NCBI RefSeq assembly: GCF_013122565.1
Contig: NZ_CP053258.1
Reading direction: 5' to 3' (one strand)
DNA length: 64,000 bases
From: Escherichia coli
Lineage (GTDB): Bacteria; Pseudomonadota; Gammaproteobacteria; Enterobacterales; Enterobacteriaceae
Below are positions 5,894 through 29,143 of this stretch, piece after piece; position 1 is the stretch's first letter; each line of letters begins with the position of its first letter. The position numbers and the translations under genes were made by a program. Under the pieces are notes generated by a model that searched no databases, had not been told where the DNA came from, and worked only from the letters and a program-made list of their open reading frames with translations.

Positions 5894-8800
5894 TTACGCC
5901 TTCTCGATGTTGACTAAGAACGCTTTATATTCCGGCGTTTGCGAGTTTGCATCACCGACATTCGGCGTCAGAGTGTTAGCGATATAACCTTTACGCGCGA
6001 CACCCTCAAAGCCCCAGTGGATCGGAATACCCACCGTTTCAACCTGCTGACCATTTACATTCAGCGGTTTCAGACGGCGCGTTACCACCGCCACCGCGCG
6101 GATAAAGCCACGCTTGCTTGAGACAGTGACACGATCGCCATTATTAATGCCTTTCGCCGCCGCCAGCGTTTCGCTGATTTCCACAAACTGTTCCGGCTGA
6201 GCAATTGCGTTGAGCAACGCGTGCTTGGTCCAGGTGTGGAAGTGCTCGGTCAGACGATAGGTCGTACCCACATACGGGAACTGCTCTTTTTTACCCATCC
6301 GCAGCGCGTCTTGTTCATACAGACGAACGACCGGGTTAGACACCACGTTCGGATGCAGCGGGTTAGTGCCCAGCGGCGTTTCAATCGGCTCGTAGTGTTC
6401 CGGGAACGGACCTTCCGCCATTTTGTTGATGGCAAACAGGCGTCCCATCCCTTCCGGCTGCATGATAAACGGCCCGGTTGGCGTACCCGGTGCGGCATTG
6501 CCGAAGTCCGGAATATCGTTACCCGTCCACTTGCTGCCGTTCCACTGGATCAGCATCCGTTTCGGATCCCACGGTTTACCGTTGATATCCGCCGAAGCAC
6601 GGTTGTAGAGTACGCGACGGTTGAGCGGCCACGCCCAGGCCCATCCCAGCGTATTCCCCAGACCGGACGGGTCGGAGTTATCGCGGTTAGCCATCTGGTT
6701 GCCCTGCTCTGTCCAGCTACCGGTGTAGATCCAGCAAGAAGATGCGGTTGTACCGTCATCACGCAGATGCGCAAAGCTACTCAGCAACTGACCTTTCTTC
6801 GCAATCAGCACGCCATTTGCGTCATAGAGATCTTCCAGCGCATAGCCGTTGTTCTCTTTTGCCACTTCGTCAGATTGCGGTTCGTGCGGCTGCTTGTAGT
6901 TCCAGCTCATCTTCATCAGCGGTTCTACGCCTTTACCACCTTCGGCCTGGTACAGCTCGCGCAGATGATGGTAGATACCCGCCAGAATTTCGCCGTCGTT
7001 ACGCGCTTCGCCCGGCGCGTCCTGACCTTTCCAGTGCCACTGCAACCAGCGACCGGAGTTAGCGATAGAACCATCTTCTTCGGCAAAGCAGGTCGAAGGC
7101 AGACGGAATACTTCAGTCTGAATAGACGCCGGATCGACATCGTTCGACTCGCCGTGGTTCTGCCAGAAGGTAGAGGTTTCAGTCACCAGCGGATCGATAA
7201 CCACCATGTACTTCAGCTTGCTCAGGCAGCTCACCACTTTGTTTTTGTCCGGGAAGGACGCAACCGGGTTAAAGCCCTGGCAGAAATAACCGGTGACTTT
7301 GCCTTCGTCCATCATGTTGAAATACTTGATGACGTCGTAGGTCTGGTCCCACTTCGGCAGCCAGTCATAGCCCCAGTTGTTCTCTTTCTGCGCGGCATCG
7401 CCATAGAAAGATTTCATCAGGCTAACGAAGAACTTCGGATAGTTGCTCCAGTAGTTCACCTGATCAGCCAGCGTCGCTTTCGGCGTGTTCGCTTCCAGAT
7501 ACGACTGCAAATCAACCTGTTTTTCTGACGGCAGCGTCAGATAACCTGGCAGGCTGGTAGAGAGCAGGCCTAAGTCAGTCAGGCCCTGAATGTTGGAGTG
7601 ACCACGCAATGCGTTCACGCCGCCACCGGCCATACCCATGTTACCGAGCAGCAACTGGATCATCGCCATAGTACGGATGTTCTGCGCACCCACGGTGTGC
7701 TGCGTCCAGCCCAGCGCGTACAGGAAGGTGGTTGTGCGATCCGGTGCGCTGGTGGAGGCCAGCACTTCACACACTTTCAGGAAGTCGGCTTTTGGCGTAC
7801 CGCAGATGTTTTCAACGACGTCCGGCGTGTAGCGGGAAACGTGCGCTTTCAGCAGGTTCCACACACAGCGCGGATGAGTCAGTGTTTCATCGCGTTTCGC
7901 ATAGCCGTTTTCATCGAACTGATAGTTCCAGGACGATTTATCGTATTGCCGTTTTTCAGCGTCGTAGCCGCTGAACAGACCGTCTTCGAAAGCAAAATCA
8001 TCACGCACCAGCAGGCTGGCGTTGGTGTAATGCTTAACATATTCGGCGTTGATTTTGTTGTTTTCGATCAGGTAGCGCAAAACGCCAGACAGGAACGTAA
8101 TGTCCGTACCGGAACGAATAGGTGCGTAAATATCCGCCACAGAAGCGGTACGCGTAAAACGGGGATCGACAACGATCAGGGTTGCATCGTTGTTGTTTTT
8201 CGCTTCCATCGCCCAGCGGAAACCGACGGGATGCGCTTCCGCAGCGTTACCGCCCATTACCATTACGACGTTAGCGTTTTTGATATCCACCCAGTGGTTG
8301 GTCATCGCACCGCGACCAAATGTTGGAGCAAGACTTGCTACCGTTGGTCCGTGTCAGACGCGCGCCTGGTTGTCTACCGCCAGCATCCCGAGGGAGCGGG
8401 CAAATTTCTGGGTCAGCATCCCGGTTTCGTTGCTGGCACCGGAGGCACACAGCATACCGGTAGAAAGCCAACGGTTTACCGTTACGCCCTGCTCGTTCTT
8501 TTCAATAAAGTTAGCGTCACGGTCAGCTTTCATCAGCTTCGCAATACGGGTGAATGCTTCTTCCCAGCTAATGCGCTGCCATTTGTCAGAACCTGGCGCA
8601 CGATATTCCGGGTAGCGCAGACGGTTTTCGCTGTTGACGTAATCCAGCAAACCGGCCCCTTTCGGACACAGCGCACCACGGCTTACCGGATGATCCGGGT
8701 CACCTTCAATGTGATAAATCGCTTCTCTGGCGTTTTTCGCGCCATCACCCAGGCTATACATCAATAGCCCGCAACCTACGGAACAGTATGTGCAGGTGTT

Positions 8801-10313: not shown

Positions 10314-11414
10314 ATGAAATTAAAAATAGTTGCGGTGGTTGTAACTGGTTTGTTAGCTGCGAACGTAGCACACGCTGCCGAAGTCTATAACAAGGATGGT
10401 AATAAACTCGACCTTTATGGCAAGGTTACCGCTCTACGTTATTTTACTGATGATAAGCGTGACGATGGTGATAAAACTTATGCCCGTCTCGGCTTTAAAG
10501 GAGAAACGCAAATCAATGATCAAATAGTTGGTTTTGGTCACTGGGAATATGATTTTAAAGGCTATAACGATGAAGCCAACGGCTCGCGCGGCAACAAGAC
10601 CCGTCTGGCCTATGCAGGTTTAAAAATTAGTGATTTTGGCTCTCTGGACTATGGTCGTAACTACGGTGTCGGCTATGACATTGGTTCATGGACCGATATG
10701 TTGCCAGAATTTGGTGGCGATACCTGGAGTCAGAAAGATGTCTTCATGACATACCGTACCACCGGTGTAGCAACCTATCGCAACTACGATTTCTTTGGCT
10801 TAATTGAAGGGCTGAACTTTGCCGCGCAATATCAAGGCAAAAATGAACGTACTGACAACAGTCATCTTTATGGTGCTGACTACACGCGCGCCAACGGTGA
10901 CGGTTTCGGTATCTCCTCAACTTATGTTTATGATGGCTTTGGTATCGGTGCGGTATATACCAAATCTGATCGGACAAATGCGCAGGAAAGAGCCGCTGCT
11001 AATCCTCTCAATGCCTCCGGTAAGAATGCAGAACTGTGGGCTACAGGTATAAAATATGGTGCCAACAACATCTACTTTGCAGCTAATTACGCTGAAACAT
11101 TAAACATGACCACCTATGGCGATGGTTATATCTCGAACAAAGCACAAAGTTTTGAAGTGGTGGCGCAATATCAATTCGACTTCGGCTTGCGCCCATCACT
11201 CGCTTACCTGAAATCGAAAGGCAGAGATCTGGGCCGCTACGGCGACCAGGACATGATTGAGTATATCGACGTTGGTGCGACGTATTTCTTCAACAAAAAT
11301 ATGTCGACCTATGTTGATTATAAAATCAACCTGATTGATGAAAGCGATTTTACCCGTGCCGTAGATATTCGCACCGATAACATCGTCGCTACGGGCATTA
11401 CCTATCAGTTCTAA
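10314..11414 (+). CDS. yddL: General porin, OmpC/OmpF/PhoE family (366 aa), intact
   Basis: Signal peptide [27 protein letters not shown], porin-typical GxxYxF beta-strand periodicity and C-terminal ...GITYQF. Symbol is by position; this locus is a pseudogene in K-12 as I recall. Confidence 0.85.
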
Positions 11415-11426
11415 CATCCTCTCCTG

Positions 11427-11452
11427 ACCAGCCCTTCTCTGGGCTGGTTTTT
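11427..11452 (+). terminator. Rho-independent terminator after porin gene
   Basis: Stem accagccc / gggctggt with loop ttctct, followed by TTTTT. Confidence 0.6.
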
Positions 11453-11583
11453 GATGTAAGTGCTGCTGTATGAATCCTTAAGTAAAAATGAGCAATTTTT
11501 GATATTTCTGAACATTCACCTCAATTAATATTATTCCATACCCTCCGGGGACATCTTACTATAATATTTATTGATGAGTGATT

Positions 11584-25334: not shown

Positions 25335-25801
25335 TCACGATTGCATATTTTTAGTGAAGATTACTTTATCCTCACCAACATCATAGTAATTGCGTATTAT
25401 CGCCTCATTGATAAAGCCCTGTTTTGTATAAAATGCGCGGGCGGCACTAAAATCGATATGGCTAGAGGTCTCTACTAAAAGTAGTCTAGCCTGTTTAATT
25501 GTGAGTTTTTTTCTATTTCGTTGATCAGCAGATGTCCCACTCCCTGGCGCTGATGGGAAGGACTGATCCAGAGCAATAATAAATTCCAGACATCATTTGT
25601 CATCACTTCAGGAGCACAATAGGCAATCCCTGCCAGTCCTAAGTGTTCTGCACTAAACCATAAATCGGCAGATTGACCTGAGAAATAATGTGTTAGTGTT
25701 TTTTGTACATGATGAAGGCCATCTTGATCAAATTGTCCACTGGCAAGCAGCATATCCAGTAATGGTTCAACATCTGAAGGTTTGACTGGTCGTATAAACA
25801 T
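25335..25801 (-). pseudogene. GNAT-family N-acetyltransferase interrupted by a frameshift at an A7 homopolymer
   Basis: Track ORF 25475..25801 (108 aa, ends ...HQRQGVGHLLINEIEKNSQLNRLDYF*) is the N-terminal part. The next frame continues from the A7 tract (top-strand T7 at 25506-25512) as KKLTIKQARLLLVETSSHIDFSAARAFYTKQGFINEAIIRNYYDVGEDKVIFTKNMQS* to a stop at 25335, a RimI-like GNAT C-terminus. One extra A would restore a ~157-aa protein. Confidence 0.6.
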
Positions 25802-26094
25802 GGAATTCCTTATCTATTTATGAATGTTTGAAAATTGTTTGCGTGGAACACGGTCAATCTGAAGTCAATATTTTTGAGAAAGAATAGATGGGTATTTATA
25901 TAAACAAAGAAGCCATTTCTTTAAATATTAATTAAAGTATAACATTAACACCGGACTTCATTGCGACAGGACACGACAAAGCAATTTTGCGGTTTTTTCA
26001 GGGTGCATTACAAAAATTGAATCCTTTATGGACTAATGTGAGAAAATTACGAGGCATAACTATTTTGATATAGTGGACAATCAAGCGTCTCGAA

Positions 26095-26847
26095 TTAACA
26101 ATGACTTTCAGATGCTAAACCATGCAATTGGTAGTATGTCGGATATAGGACAACATTAGGAAATCGGACAGAAAATTCAGCATAATAAAATGACAACTTA
26201 TCTCTTTCTCTCACTTTCTGAGAAATTTCACAAAAGTATAAACTGAGCCAATATGCCTTTATATATAAAAAATACTCATGCTTATTTTTATCGGAAAAAG
26301 CCAAAATTGTGTCAAGTCCATCAAAAATATCTTTATCATGATTTATATGTACTCTTGATGAATTTACAATATCTTTTAATTCGCGGTAAATCTTATTAAA
26401 TAGCGCAACCGATTCACTGTTATTGAATCCATAGTTGATAAAAAGACATGATTTAACATCCGATATTAGTAAGTCGTCATAATCTATCTCAATTCCACAC
26501 AATTTCACGATATACTCAGCTATAGTATTACTTTGCAAGGACTCAACAACTGACAGTAAAACAGATGGATGCAATAATATTTCAAGAAGACTTCTGTCGA
26601 TATTTTTATACACGTTTATTGCAAATTCATCACTCGTCCCATCGATGGTGTCAGATATTAAAAAAAATACATACTCGGGGAGTTCATACCACATATTAAT
26701 TTTAATAATATCACGACACGTATCTTCTAACTGTTGTAATCTATTACCTTTATTCATAACAACCTTAATGTTATTATATGGAATCTTTAGCGTAATCTTC
26801 TTAACTCCGAGGAATTTTACTAAACCGTTGTTAGAGAAAATATGCAT
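26095..26847 (-). CDS. Hypothetical protein (250 aa), AT-rich island ORF of unknown function
   Basis: Track ORF; AT-rich, Asn/Ile/Lys/Tyr-rich; own upstream region of ~270 nt containing a 10-bp inverted repeat. No family recognised. Confidence 0.55.
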   Translation of the reverse strand: MHIFSNNGLVKFLGVKKITLKIPYNNIKVVMNKGNRLQQLEDTCRDIIKINMWYELPEYVFFLISDTIDGTSDEFAINVYKNIDRSLLEILLHPSVLLSVVESLQSNTIAEYIVKLCGIEIDYDDLLISDVKSCLFINYGFNNSESVALFNKIYRELKDIVNSSRVHINHDKDIFDGLDTILAFSDKNKHEYFLYIKAYWLSLYFCEISQKVRERDKLSFYYAEFSVRFPNVVLYPTYYQLHGLASESHC

Positions 26848-27115
26848 ATCACTGACAGCGTGTTATTAATTCACTCTGGTGTTATATAACAAAAATATCC
26901 CCTCCTGTTTTCACCTCTTTGTATTCATGATAGTTAAGGGGAGTGCTAACTTAATATAACACCTGTATTTTCTCACTTTTAGCAAAAACACAAGTTTACT
27001 AAAGAACATAACATTACTGGTTAAACTGTAAAAACAATTGATAACGAAGAGCATCATAAGTTAATAATTTGATTGTTTTCAATGCATTATTACAACTGCA
27101 TTCAGAAGTATATTT

Positions 27116-27676
27116 TTACATAAAGTGTTTATTGATGATTTTTACCAGTTCATCTTTTGCAATAAGCTCTATATTTAAATTAACACACTCAACAATCTGA
27201 AGAAATGTGTCACTTAGTATATGTTCATGATCACCTTTCGTATGCATTTTGACAAAAAGGCCAAAAGATGCGCGAACAAAAGATATCTCGGGGTTATCCC
27301 ATGTAAACCATCGTACTCCACCACCTTCATTCATATACTCCCTTATTCTATGCTGTTCATTATTAAAACTTGAAAAATTAACGTTTTTTTCAAAGAAGGC
27401 ATTTTGCGCTAAAGATATTATTTTCCTGGATAATTCATTACAAACACGAGGGTTCGTGTCAAGAATAAATACCATTACATCAAGTGTAAAATGACGTATT
27501 TTATCTATATTTTTCCTTTTCATTGGTCCTAGCAATGAACCGTAAACTTTATCAATACGTTCATCAAGCAATCTTACCATATTTTTTCTTTCTATTTCGA
27601 TGTAATAATCTGGTTGATTATGTATCCCGCTATTATTTTGATGGTTCATTGTTTTAATTTTTTTGCTTTTTTTCAT
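27116..27676 (-). CDS. Hypothetical protein (186 aa), AT-rich island ORF of unknown function
   Basis: Track ORF; GAGG SD 4 nt upstream of ATG; Lys-rich N-terminus MKKSKKIKTMNHQNNSG; no family recognised. Confidence 0.55.
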   Translation of the reverse strand: MKKSKKIKTMNHQNNSGIHNQPDYYIEIERKNMVRLLDERIDKVYGSLLGPMKRKNIDKIRHFTLDVMVFILDTNPRVCNELSRKIISLAQNAFFEKNVNFSSFNNEQHRIREYMNEGGGVRWFTWDNPEISFVRASFGLFVKMHTKGDHEHILSDTFLQIVECVNLNIELIAKDELVKIINKHFM

Positions 27677-27783
27677 TGTTACCTCGTTGTGTCATGATTT
27701 TAGTAGTGGATGAAAAATAACACCGACTCATCAGATTTTAATTAAGTTTTCATGTTGGCTAATTCGTTTGAAGAGTTACTACT

Positions 27784-28206
27784 TTATTCAATCCAGTAAG
27801 CTAGTCGCTCTCCAGAGCTTAGATTTTCCCTTTTGTAATAAAATACTGTATCGAAATTAAGTGAAATGGTTTCTGCTATAACTTTAAACTGTAATATTGA
27901 CTCGGAATAAAACTCGAGAACAATATTAGCATCATTATTATCATTGATTATTTTTAGTTTCATAAAATCATCAAGAGGATCACAAGTCCAGTACGTATCA
28001 CCACTCATGTAAGATGGTGCATTTATTATTATTTCAAAATTATGATAATAAGAAAGATCACTACTGCCAACGATAATTAATCGCCCATTACTATAGAGAT
28101 AAATTTCAAAATCTATCCAACAGTTATTTCTGTAATTACGCCTGATTTCGTCCACTACATTTTGTTGTTTCATTTTGGATACTTGTAAAATATAATTACT
28201 ACGCAT
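27784..28206 (-). CDS. Hypothetical protein (140 aa), AT-rich island ORF; possible immunity-type protein
   Basis: Track ORF; starts 44 nt after the upstream ORF stop; no family recognised. Confidence 0.5.
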   Translation of the reverse strand: MRSNYILQVSKMKQQNVVDEIRRNYRNNCWIDFEIYLYSNGRLIIVGSSDLSYYHNFEIIINAPSYMSGDTYWTCDPLDDFMKLKIINDNNDANIVLEFYSESILQFKVIAETISLNFDTVFYYKRENLSSGERLAYWIE

Positions 28207-28250
28207 TGATAAAGTGATATATGATCTTATATAGGTCGCACCTGTAAAAT

Positions 28251-28583
28251 TTAAAATGTGTTAACTTCCCTTCTTAACAATACAAACCCCTCAAGGCTTA
28301 ATATTTTATTTTTTAACTCATCATGCCTGATCGTATCATTGATATAGAGAAGATAAGTATACTCAGGATAATCGACCTCATCCACTACACCATCCAAAAC
28401 ATCATAATTTTCTTTTAGAAGAAAATGTTCATGGCTTTTGTCTCCGGACAATAAATAGATTCCGCCATAATAAAGGCTTTCTTTCTCTTTAAATGTGATT
28501 TTTATTACATCTTCTAACATCTTCAGCGCATCATAGATTCCTACTCCAGAATATCCATACAAGTCATAATAACTCATTCCCAT
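28251..28583 (-). CDS. Hypothetical protein (110 aa), AT-rich island ORF; possible immunity-type protein
   Basis: Track ORF; AGGTG SD; starts 21 nt after the upstream ORF stop (operon-like coupling); acidic, Tyr-rich. Confidence 0.5.
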   Translation of the reverse strand: MGMSYYDLYGYSGVGIYDALKMLEDVIKITFKEKESLYYGGIYLLSGDKSHEHFLLKENYDVLDGVVDEVDYPEYTYLLYINDTIRHDELKNKILSLEGFVLLRREVNTF

Positions 28584-28604
28584 TTCACCTGTTTGAATTT
28601 GTAT

Positions 28605-28877
28605 TCATTTACCCTCACGGGATTTAGTAATTACATTCAGCAGTGGCTTTAAGTGTGATGTTACAAAACTATCACGCCTTTGCTCAATTATCATTTGGAT
28701 ATACTGTTTTGTATCAGTGTTACCATACTTAGCCATATAGAACATTACTGCGTCCATTATATCTCTTTCATAGTTTTCTATTGCATCAACATAGACATCA
28801 ACCAGAGTATTAACTTCTTTATTTGATGGATGTTCTGAAAGATTACTCTCAAATTGTGAGAATCTGAATCGTACCAT
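28605..28877 (-). CDS. Hypothetical protein (90 aa), first ORF of the AT-rich island next to yncG
   Basis: Track ORF; occupies the slot where K-12 has yncH/rhsE; no family recognised. Confidence 0.45.
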   Translation of the reverse strand: MVRFRFSQFESNLSEHPSNKEVNTLVDVYVDAIENYERDIMDAVMFYMAKYGNTDTKQYIQMIIEQRRDSFVTSHLKPLLNVITKSREGK

Positions 28878-29143
28878 TACGATTCTCTTAGAAATATCAT
28901 TAAATACGCTACCGCCCTACCCTGATAACATGATCTGCACGGCGCTATCATATCGGTATGTTTCTCTATATGCGAAAAGATGTTTTATTTTCAGATTAAA
29001 TCAAATAGATATTTAATATAAAAAACGAAATTTCATCAATCATATAAATAGTTGTACTAACTTCAATTACCATTCATAGCAAACAAATAGACGCCCAGTT
29101 AACTTTGCCGATGATTTATTAACATTAATCTCCGGCATTATTG

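What the first reader, a model, noticed from the sequence alone, without database searches (positions are those of the whole stretch)
27784..28877. Three small island ORFs are tightly packed like a polycistronic cassette
The 90-aa, 110-aa and 140-aa ORFs lie head-to-tail with 21-nt and 44-nt gaps, and the 110-aa ORF has an AGGTG Shine-Dalgarno in the 21-nt gap. A further 107-nt gap precedes the 186-aa ORF, which has a GAGG SD. This is the spacing of an operon of small partner proteins (toxin/antitoxin, toxin-fragment/immunity or small multi-component system), not independent genes.
Basis: seen in the sequence. Interest (0 to 1): 0.55.

Follow-up and report, generated by a model that had tools for sequence, protein, structure and literature searches.

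The report
Toxin-less Rhs immunity gene array
The three small genes are not partners of one another: at least two are leftover "antidote" (immunity) genes against two different Rhs toxins that bacteria inject into rivals, sitting without any toxin gene in the E. coli hotspot that holds rhsE or a vgrG toxin module in other strains, which is a known and fairly ordinary kind of arrangement.

Summary
The ORFs and gaps are real. They lie on the minus strand in a 30-32% GC island between yncG and yddH of an E. coli chromosome. This slot holds rhsE'-ydcD in K-12 and PAAR-VgrG-effector in strain 042.

ORF3 (140 aa; probably 129 aa from Met12) is 47-56% identical to proteins whose start overlaps the stop of full-length Rhs toxins with an Ntox30 tip, in E. 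coli A8, Pectobacterium and Kosakonia.

ORF2 (110 aa; probably 108 aa from Met3) belongs to a family of 289 clusters. In five independent contexts a member lies 4-14 nt after an Rhs tip of one unnamed toxin family.

ORF1 (90 aa) has relatives only in Escherichia. It evolves almost neutrally and is broken in three diverged copies, so its status is doubtful.

The 64-kb window holds no cognate toxin and no Rhs core trace. In E. fergusonii the same trio heads a longer toxin-less array that includes CDI_Immunity_Comp and TsiV proteins.

Verdict: an orphan immunity-gene array, partly decaying. It is not a toxin/antitoxin pair or a multi-component system. Co-transcription is plausible but untested. 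It is a new member of a known kind, of modest interest.

The parts
28605..28877 (-). ORF1, 90 aa. A predicted three-helix protein found only in Escherichia, function unknown. It is doubtful as a functional gene.
   Evidence: No hit in Pfam, NCBIfam, PADLOC, PHROGs or PDB. Only relatives at >=84% identity, all at this same locus. AF2 pLDDT is 65 and the fold search was uninformative. dN/dS is 0.40-0.65, not significant. DNA identity to E. fergusonii is 88.6%, below the 91.4% of the adjacent non-coding DNA. Frameshifted in L020 and L021, truncated by a deletion in L014.
28251..28577 (-). ORF2, 108 aa from Met3 (110 aa from 28583). Orphan member of an unnamed immunity family of ~105-108 aa, paired elsewhere with one Rhs C-terminal toxin family.
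   Evidence: 289 cluster representatives with end-to-end matches. Members lie 4-14 nt downstream of Rhs tips in L005-7, L008, L009-11, L013 and L025, and those tips are 48-55% identical to each other. The AF2 model has pLDDT 91 and a ferredoxin-like alpha/beta sandwich fold. AGGTG lies 8 nt upstream of Met3. The 21-nt gap is 100% conserved in E. fergusonii.
27784..28173 (-). ORF3, 129 aa from Met12 (140 aa from 28206). Orphan member of the immunity family paired with Ntox30-tipped Rhs toxins.
   Evidence: 56% identical over 129 aa to WP_000003345.1 of E. coli A8, whose ATG overlaps the stop of a VgrG/DcrB-linked 1617-aa Rhs. That Rhs tip is Pfam Ntox30, E 1.2e-11. Homologs at 47-53% identity in Pectobacterium polaris and Kosakonia cowanii overlap by 4 nt the stop of Rhs proteins with Ntox30. 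dN/dS is 0.03 against PT62 and 0.23 against E. fergusonii, P=0.015.
28904..28940 (-). 37-nt conserved element at the yncG-proximal border of the variable island.
   Evidence: The same core occurs upstream of vgrG in A8, of rhsE' in a K-12-type genome and of PAAR in 042, and sequences diverge right after it.
27740..28899 (-). The 1.15-kb variable module that carries the three ORFs. In other strains this span is replaced by rhsE'-ydcD or by PAAR-VgrG-M35-ISAs1.
   Evidence: Homology break-points against 042 (window 27746 and 28899) and against E. fergusonii (27740). The full module is present in about 12 of 5426 complete E. coli genomes.
25475..27676 (-). Rest of the low-GC island on the same strand: 186-aa ORF (27676..27116), 250-aa ORF (26847..26095) and a truncated GNAT gene (25801..25475).
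   Evidence: No family hits. The 186/250 pair is in 237 of 5426 genomes, and in 042 it lies downstream of an ISAs1 remnant. The 186-aa ORF is frameshifted in PT62. The GNAT gene is truncated here compared with 155 aa in PT62.

Best explanation
The three ORFs form a toxin-less (orphan) immunity-gene array at the yncG-yddH rhs/vgrG hotspot of E. coli.

Shown:
- ORF3 is a homolog of the protein encoded in the immunity position of Ntox30-tipped, T6SS-linked Rhs toxins.
- ORF2 is a homolog of the protein encoded in the immunity position of a second, unnamed Rhs tip family.
- Neither cognate toxin, nor any Rhs core remnant, is in the window.
- The same chromosomal slot carries Rhs or VgrG toxin modules in other strains.
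- In E. fergusonii the trio heads a longer array with recognised immunity domains and ISAs1 fragments.

Inferred:
- Each product would act alone, by binding and blocking its own toxin when a neighbouring bacterium injects it. They do not act on one another.
- The array arose by accretion of toxin/immunity cassettes followed by loss or displacement of the toxin parts.
- ORF3 is still under constraint and probably functional. ORF2 possibly is. ORF1 is of unknown nature and probably decaying or not a real gene.
- The genes may share a transcript starting in the conserved leader next to yncG. This is untested.
For: Slot identity:
- K-12-type genome: yncG-yncH-rhsE'-ydcD-ISAs1-pptA-yddH.
- Strain 042: yncG-PAAR-VgrG-M35-ISAs1'-186aa-211aa-yddH.

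ORF3:
- 56% identical to the A8 protein that overlaps the Rhs stop.
- The Rhs tip is Ntox30 in A8, Pectobacterium and Kosakonia.
- dN/dS is 0.03-0.23.

ORF2:
- Family of 289 clusters.
- Five independent contexts directly after homologous Rhs tips, including a 5356-aa RHS protein.

Other evidence:
- tblastn finds no trace of either toxin tip or of the Rhs core in the 64 kb.
- The E. fergusonii array contains PF28203 CDI_Immunity_Comp and PF11876 TsiV proteins and has no Rhs or VgrG.
- The island is 30-32% GC against about 52% in the flanks.
- Toxin-less immunity arrays at T6SS effector loci are described in V. cholerae (PMC5361080) and in gut Bacteroidales (PMC12247911).
Against: - No neutralisation or binding was tested.
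- ORF1 has no link to any toxin system.
- ORF2's dN/dS (0.38-0.48) is not significantly below 1. ORF2 is frameshifted in L021 and deleted in L014.
- ORF3 lacks a recognisable Shine-Dalgarno sequence now that it is uncoupled from an upstream Rhs gene.
- The module is in only about 12 of 5426 complete genomes.
- Classic orphan rhs modules keep a core fragment plus tip. Here none is left, so the route of toxin loss is unclear.
- Whether the rest of this genome holds the cognate toxins could not be checked.
Confidence: 0.75

Rival explanations
1. One reading: a polycistronic cassette of partner proteins, either a toxin/antitoxin pair or a small multi-component (for example defence) system, in which neighbouring products act on each other.
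For: Tight head-to-tail spacing on one strand, no terminator-like sites, and an AGGTG before ORF2. The 21-nt ORF1-ORF2 gap is 100% conserved in E. fergusonii.
Against: No toxin-antitoxin, defence or phage family matches. The relatives of ORF2 and ORF3 are each paired with their own Rhs toxin and never with each other or with an ORF1 relative. ORF1 is frameshifted in L020 while ORF2 and ORF3 stay intact, and ORF2 is lost in L014 and L021 while ORF3 persists in L021.
Confidence: 0.05
2. Dead relics: the descent from immunity genes is correct, but none of the three is expressed or protective today. They are neutral leftovers of a deleted Rhs/VgrG module, silenced as AT-rich foreign DNA.
For: Independent frameshifts and deletions in sister lineages. 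Rare distribution. Weak or absent Shine-Dalgarno sequences for ORF1 and ORF3. Promoter-like matches only at chance level. The neighbouring GNAT and 186-aa genes are also broken in some strains.
Against: ORF3 shows clear purifying selection: 7 synonymous to 1 non-synonymous change against PT62, and dN/dS 0.23 with P=0.015 against E. fergusonii. All three ORFs are intact in the window and in the 10 PT62-like complete genomes that hold the whole island.
Confidence: 0.15
3. ORF1 is a novel small toxin, or the remnant of a toxin tip, and ORF2 is its immunity protein. That would make it an orphan toxin-fragment/immunity module, followed by a second immunity gene.
For: ORF1 sits 21 nt upstream of an immunity-family gene, which is the usual place for a toxin tip.
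Against: ORF1 shows no similarity to the toxin tips that precede five other family members. Those tips are 48-55% identical to one another, and the one checked directly against ORF1 (L007) gave no alignment. ORF1 has no PxxxxDPxGL motif or Rhs core upstream, and the island border lies only about 25 nt before its ATG. It is predicted to be a simple three-helix protein at low confidence.
Confidence: 0.04

Closest known systems
rhsE'-ydcD locus of E. coli K-12 (Rhs element with downstream immunity gene)
   Same: Identical chromosomal slot between yncG and yddH, the same orientation, and the same 37-nt element at the upstream border. AT-rich small ORFs lie downstream, and ISAs1 (H-repeat) remnants are associated in relatives.
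   Different: K-12 keeps a truncated Rhs core and tip together with ydcD. The window has no Rhs sequence at all, lacks yncH, and carries three unrelated small ORFs instead.
Orphan immunity gene arrays at T6SS effector loci of Vibrio cholerae (Kirchberger et al. 2017, PMC5361080)
   Same: Several immunity genes in tandem without their effectors. Each is homologous to the cognate immunity gene of an effector-immunity pair in other strains. They sit at a locus where effector modules are exchanged.
   Different: In V. cholerae the arrays lie 3' of a resident, intact effector-immunity pair inside a T6SS cluster. Here no effector remains at the locus, and protective function is untested.
Orphan rhs-CT/rhsI and cdiA-CT/cdiI modules (Poole et al. 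2011, PMC3150448; Koskiniemi et al. 2014, PMC3967940)
   Same: Displaced toxin/immunity cassettes accumulate downstream of Rhs genes in Enterobacteriaceae. The immunity genes are small, AT-rich and tightly spaced.
   Different: Those orphan modules retain the toxin tip and a piece of the core that allows recombination back into the main gene. Here only the immunity genes remain.
Orphan immunity genes / acquired interbacterial defence clusters of gut Bacteroidales (PMC12247911)
   Same: Immunity genes held without the matching toxin, thought to protect against other strains' T6SS.
   Different: Different phylum, different toxin and immunity families, and those clusters are carried on mobile elements. 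No integrase or recombinase is seen in the window.

Membership tests
Rhs (polymorphic toxin) immunity proteins: Ntox30-associated family (ORF3) | Homologs are encoded immediately downstream of, or overlapping, the toxin gene's 3' end | tested here: met
   A 4-nt ATGA overlap with a full-length Rhs in E. coli A8, P. polaris and K. cowanii.
Rhs (polymorphic toxin) immunity proteins: Ntox30-associated family (ORF3) | The immunity family co-varies with one toxin-tip family | tested here: met
   All three upstream Rhs proteins carry Pfam Ntox30.
Rhs (polymorphic toxin) immunity proteins: Ntox30-associated family (ORF3) | Binds and neutralises the cognate toxin | not testable with these tools
   This needs co-expression or a binding assay. 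Zhang et al. 2012 (PMC3482391) list no immunity family for Ntox30.
Rhs immunity proteins: unnamed ~107-aa family (ORF2) | Homologs are encoded immediately downstream of the toxin gene's 3' end | tested here: met
   Gaps of 4-14 nt after Rhs tips in L005-7, L008, L009-11, L013 and L025. One distant member (L024) is not so placed, and L012 is uninformative.
Rhs immunity proteins: unnamed ~107-aa family (ORF2) | The immunity family co-varies with one toxin-tip family | tested here: met
   The upstream tips are 48-55% identical to each other, E 1e-40 to 5e-54.
Rhs immunity proteins: unnamed ~107-aa family (ORF2) | Binds and neutralises the cognate toxin | not testable with these tools
Orphan immunity gene array | The cognate toxins are absent from the locus | tested here: met
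   No tblastn hit better than E = 4 for Ntox30 or for the second tip family, and only a chance-level hit (E = 0.027) for the Rhs core end, in the 64-kb window. The rest of the genome could not be examined.
Orphan immunity gene array | Lies at a locus where toxin/effector modules reside in other strains | tested here: met
   rhsE' in the K-12 type and PAAR-VgrG-M35 in 042 occupy the same slot.
Orphan immunity gene array | All members are homologs of cognate immunity genes | tested here: inconclusive
   Met for ORF2 and ORF3. ORF1 has no detectable relative outside this island.
Orphan rhs-CT/rhsI module (Poole 2011 type) | Retains a toxin tip, usually with a fragment of the Rhs core (PxxxxDPxGL) | tested here: not met
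   No tip or core remnant is present. ORF1 is unrelated to the cognate tip.
Type II toxin-antitoxin module | A toxin of a known superfamily with an adjacent antitoxin, and the pairing conserved across genomes | tested here: not met
   No Pfam, NCBIfam or PADLOC match. The pairing is not conserved outside the island.

The most novel reading that the evidence does not exclude
A minority E. coli/E. fergusonii lineage that lost the Rhs/VgrG weapon at this hotspot keeps, and expresses from the conserved leader, a small defensive operon of immunity genes. This operon protects it against Ntox30-type and nucleotidyltransferase-like Rhs toxins fired by other Enterobacterales. ORF1 would be a third, entirely new immunity protein or a regulator. 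The locus would then be an enterobacterial counterpart of acquired interbacterial defence clusters, and it would give the first assigned immunity partner for Ntox30.
Probability: 0.25. Interest if true: 0.45.

Novelty: new member of a known kind. Interest (0 to 1): 0.3.

Why it matters
It turns three "hypothetical proteins" into testable assignments.

- ORF3's family is the likely immunity partner of Ntox30. Ntox30 is a predicted RNase toxin for which the founding survey listed no immunity family (PMC3482391), and a 2023 review still calls it uncharacterised (PMC9990079).
- ORF2's family, 289 clusters with no Pfam or NCBIfam model, is paired with an equally unnamed Rhs tip family.
- The locus is another example of bacteria retaining antidotes after losing the weapon. 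This bears on how E. coli strains resist each other's type VI attacks.

It does not reveal a new kind of system.

Tried and rejected
Searches that gave nothing useful:
- Pfam, NCBIfam, PADLOC and PHROGs on all island proteins gave nothing above noise.
- PDB sequence searches for ORF1, for the ORF2 family profile and for the unnamed toxin tip gave nothing.
- The ORF1 model is of low confidence and its fold hits were meaningless.
- tblastn of ORF1 against plasmids gave nothing.
- Rfam on the island gave only chance hits.

Ideas tested and dropped:
- ORF1 is not a diverged yncH.
- An apparent second copy of the trio in L006/L007 (80, 106 and 138 aa) was rejected. The 80-aa ORF is a broken Rhs toxin tip and the 138-aa ORF is unrelated.
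- Promoter-like matches are at chance level, so no promoter can be assigned.

Not run: I did not scan genome or metagenome collections for ORF1. Those scans need exact shared peptide stretches, and the indexed protein search had already found only near-identical copies.

Full report
**Observation**

The three ORFs are on the minus strand: 90 aa at 28877..28605, 110 aa at 28583..28251 and 140 aa at 28206..27784. The gaps are 21 and 44 nt, with a further 107 nt before a 186-aa ORF (27676..27116). They lie in a patch of 30-32% GC between flanks of about 52% GC.

All six island ORFs of at least 90 aa are on the same strand. That never happened in 1000 Markov shuffles of the island. A lone ORF of at least 90 aa appeared in 28% of shuffles.

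The product is therefore probably 108 aa. Relatives of the 140-aa ORF are 127-129 aa and align from Met12. Its real start is probably 28173 and the real gap 77 nt. GAGG lies 5 nt before the 186-aa ORF.

**Where it lies**

The window is E. coli: ansP is up to 99.4% identical to E. coli genomes. The island sits between yddH and yncG.

- In a K-12-type genome this slot reads yncG-yncH-rhsE' (truncated Rhs)-ydcD-ISAs1 remnants-pptA-yddH.
- In strain 042 it reads yncG-PAAR-VgrG-M35 peptidase-hypothetical-ISAs1 remnant-186 aa-211 aa-yddH.

The slot is therefore a hotspot for Rhs/VgrG toxin modules.

Homology break-points show that the trio is a separate 1.15-kb module, window ~27740-28899. It is present in about 12 of 5426 complete genomes. 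The 186/250-aa pair downstream is in 237 genomes.

A 37-nt core (28904-28940) lies at the module's upstream edge. The same core is found about 0.3 kb upstream of vgrG at a different locus in strain A8, upstream of rhsE' in K-12, and upstream of PAAR in 042. Sequences diverge right after it.

**ORF3 (140 aa, probably 129 aa)**

About 121 E. coli genomes hold a 69.5%-identical DNA copy. In strain A8 that copy encodes a 129-aa protein that is 56% identical over its whole length. Its ATG overlaps the stop (ATGA) of a 1617-aa Rhs protein, which is preceded by a DcrB-like gene and vgrG. The tip of that Rhs protein matches Pfam Ntox30 with E = 1.2e-11.

More distant relatives (47-53% identity) in Pectobacterium polaris and Kosakonia cowanii also overlap by 4 nt the stop of Rhs proteins carrying Ntox30.

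Zhang et al. 2012 describe Ntox30 as an all-beta, RHS-linked, predicted metal-independent RNase, and list no immunity family for it (PMC3482391). A 2023 review still calls it uncharacterised (PMC9990079).

ORF3 is under purifying selection. Against PT62 there are 7 synonymous and 1 non-synonymous differences (dN/dS 0.03). Against E. fergusonii dN/dS is 0.23 (P=0.015).

**ORF2 (110 aa, probably 108 aa)**

The word-indexed search found only Escherichia copies. The exhaustive HMMER search found 289 cluster representatives, nearly all 105-110 aa and matching end to end (alignment A1).

Genomic contexts of the sampled members:

| Locus | Member | What precedes it |
|---|---|---|
| L009-11 | 42% identical to ORF2 | 5356-aa RHS-repeat protein, 9 nt upstream |
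| L005-7 | 56% identical | YVPSPLTWGDPLGL motif (end of an Rhs core) plus a tip broken by one stop |
| L013 | not stated | same tip family |
| L008 | not stated | same tip family |
| L025 | not stated | same tip family, with PLMYVDPLGL |
| L024 | 30% identical | not so placed |
| L012 | not stated | uninformative |

The tips are 48-55% identical to one another, E 1e-40 to 5e-54. They have no Pfam, NCBIfam or PDB sequence match.

Selection on ORF2 is not resolved: dN/dS is 0.38-0.48 on few substitutions.

**ORF1 (90 aa)**

- Only relatives at 84% identity or more were found, all at this locus in E. coli or E. fergusonii.
- There is no family, structure or plasmid hit.
- The predicted three-helix model has pLDDT 65 and gave no useful fold hits.
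- It is not yncH, and it gave no alignment to the one ORF2-family toxin tip compared directly (L007).
- Against E. fergusonii its DNA identity (88.6%) is below that of the adjacent non-coding DNA (91.4%). dN/dS is 0.40-0.65, not significant.
- It is frameshifted in L020 and L021 and cut by a deletion in L014.

Whether it is a functional gene is open.

**The array in relatives**

In E. fergusonii (L020) the same trio is followed, on the same strand, by 129-, 159-, 118- and 160-aa ORFs, a 113-aa protein with PF28203 CDI_Immunity_Comp, a 329-aa protein with PF11876 TsiV, and ISAs1 fragments. There is no Rhs or VgrG gene.

In L014 a deletion fuses ORF1 to the tail of ORF2, and ORF3 is frameshifted. 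In L021 ORF2 is frameshifted. The members are therefore lost one by one, not as a unit.

The whole 64-kb window has no tblastn trace of Ntox30, of the second tip family, or of an Rhs core.

**Expression signals**

There are no terminator-like sites in 25.2-29.9 kb (0 found against 2.4 expected). Promoter-like matches are at chance level, 22 against 22.4 expected. Rfam finds nothing. A single transcript is possible but cannot be shown here.

**Interpretation**

The best-supported reading is an orphan immunity-gene array at the rhsE/vgrG hotspot.

- ORF3 and ORF2 are homologs of immunity proteins for two different Rhs toxins. That is shown by homology plus conserved gene position and toxin co-variation.
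- Each would act alone by blocking its own injected toxin. That is inferred from what is established for Rhs and CDI immunity proteins (PMC3150448).
- Their adjacency comes from cassette accretion and toxin loss, as proposed for V. cholerae arrays (PMC5361080), not from partnership.

The main uncertainties are whether the genes are expressed and protective now, what ORF1 is, and how the toxin parts were removed so cleanly.

**Novelty**

This is a new member of a known kind. There are two by-products of some use:
- a candidate immunity family for Ntox30;
- a large unnamed immunity family together with its unnamed cognate Rhs tip family.

Noticed in passing
window 28904-28940 (minus strand); also L003 19986-20022, L004 9001-9037, L002 ~19263-19300: A 37-nt core, GTGCAGATCATGTTATCAGGGTAGGGCGGTAGCGTAT, is shared by otherwise unrelated DNA upstream of vgrG (A8, cus locus), rhsE' (K-12 type) and PAAR (042). 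Matches covering it, or part of it, were found in most of the 4173 of 5426 E. coli genomes with any hit. The variable island begins right after it. It could be a promoter or leader element, or a recombination border. Its function is unknown.
   Followed up: partly
L009 ~7590-7991; L013 1-564; L025 2-517; L007 3-461; L008 1-163: An unnamed Rhs C-terminal toxin family of about 130 aa follows PxxxxDPLGL. Its motifs are QGSAVTG, DFD(I/V), GTRTGPL..ARD, FMI and APSI(V/I)LP. It has no Pfam, NCBIfam or PDB sequence match. The G-S...DxD pattern looks to me like a minimal nucleotidyltransferase signature, but I did not test this.
   Followed up: partly
window 25475-25801 (minus): The GNAT acetyltransferase gene at the yddH end of the island is truncated here, 108 aa against 155 aa in strain PT62. 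A 1-base indel separates the two copies.
   Followed up: partly
window 26095-27676 (minus); L002 12462-14017: The 186-aa and 250-aa ORFs have no family match. They occur in 237 of 5426 E. coli genomes. In strain 042 they lie just downstream of an ISAs1 remnant that ends a PAAR-VgrG-M35 module. The 186-aa ORF is frameshifted in PT62. They may be further orphan immunity genes, but I did not examine this.
   Followed up: partly
window 28878-29143: yncH, which follows yncG in K-12, is absent from the window. There is no tblastn hit, and the yncG-to-island spacer is only 266 nt.
   Followed up: yes
L020 9454-16810 (E. fergusonii AP027926.1): A long toxin-less array of small same-strand ORFs interspersed with ISAs1 fragments. 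It includes CDI_Immunity_Comp (PF28203) and TsiV (PF11876) proteins and ends in a disrupted nhoA. It looks like a graveyard or library of immunity genes.
   Followed up: partly
L015 8447-8602 and L016 2224-2379 (Pectobacterium polaris): A 51-aa SymE_toxin (PF08845) ORF lies on the opposite strand just downstream of the Ntox30 immunity gene.
   Followed up: no
window 10314-14159: A second low-GC patch (34-40% GC) encodes a porin and two leucine-rich-repeat proteins between yddG and narU. This looks like the ordinary yddL/yddK region.
   Followed up: partly
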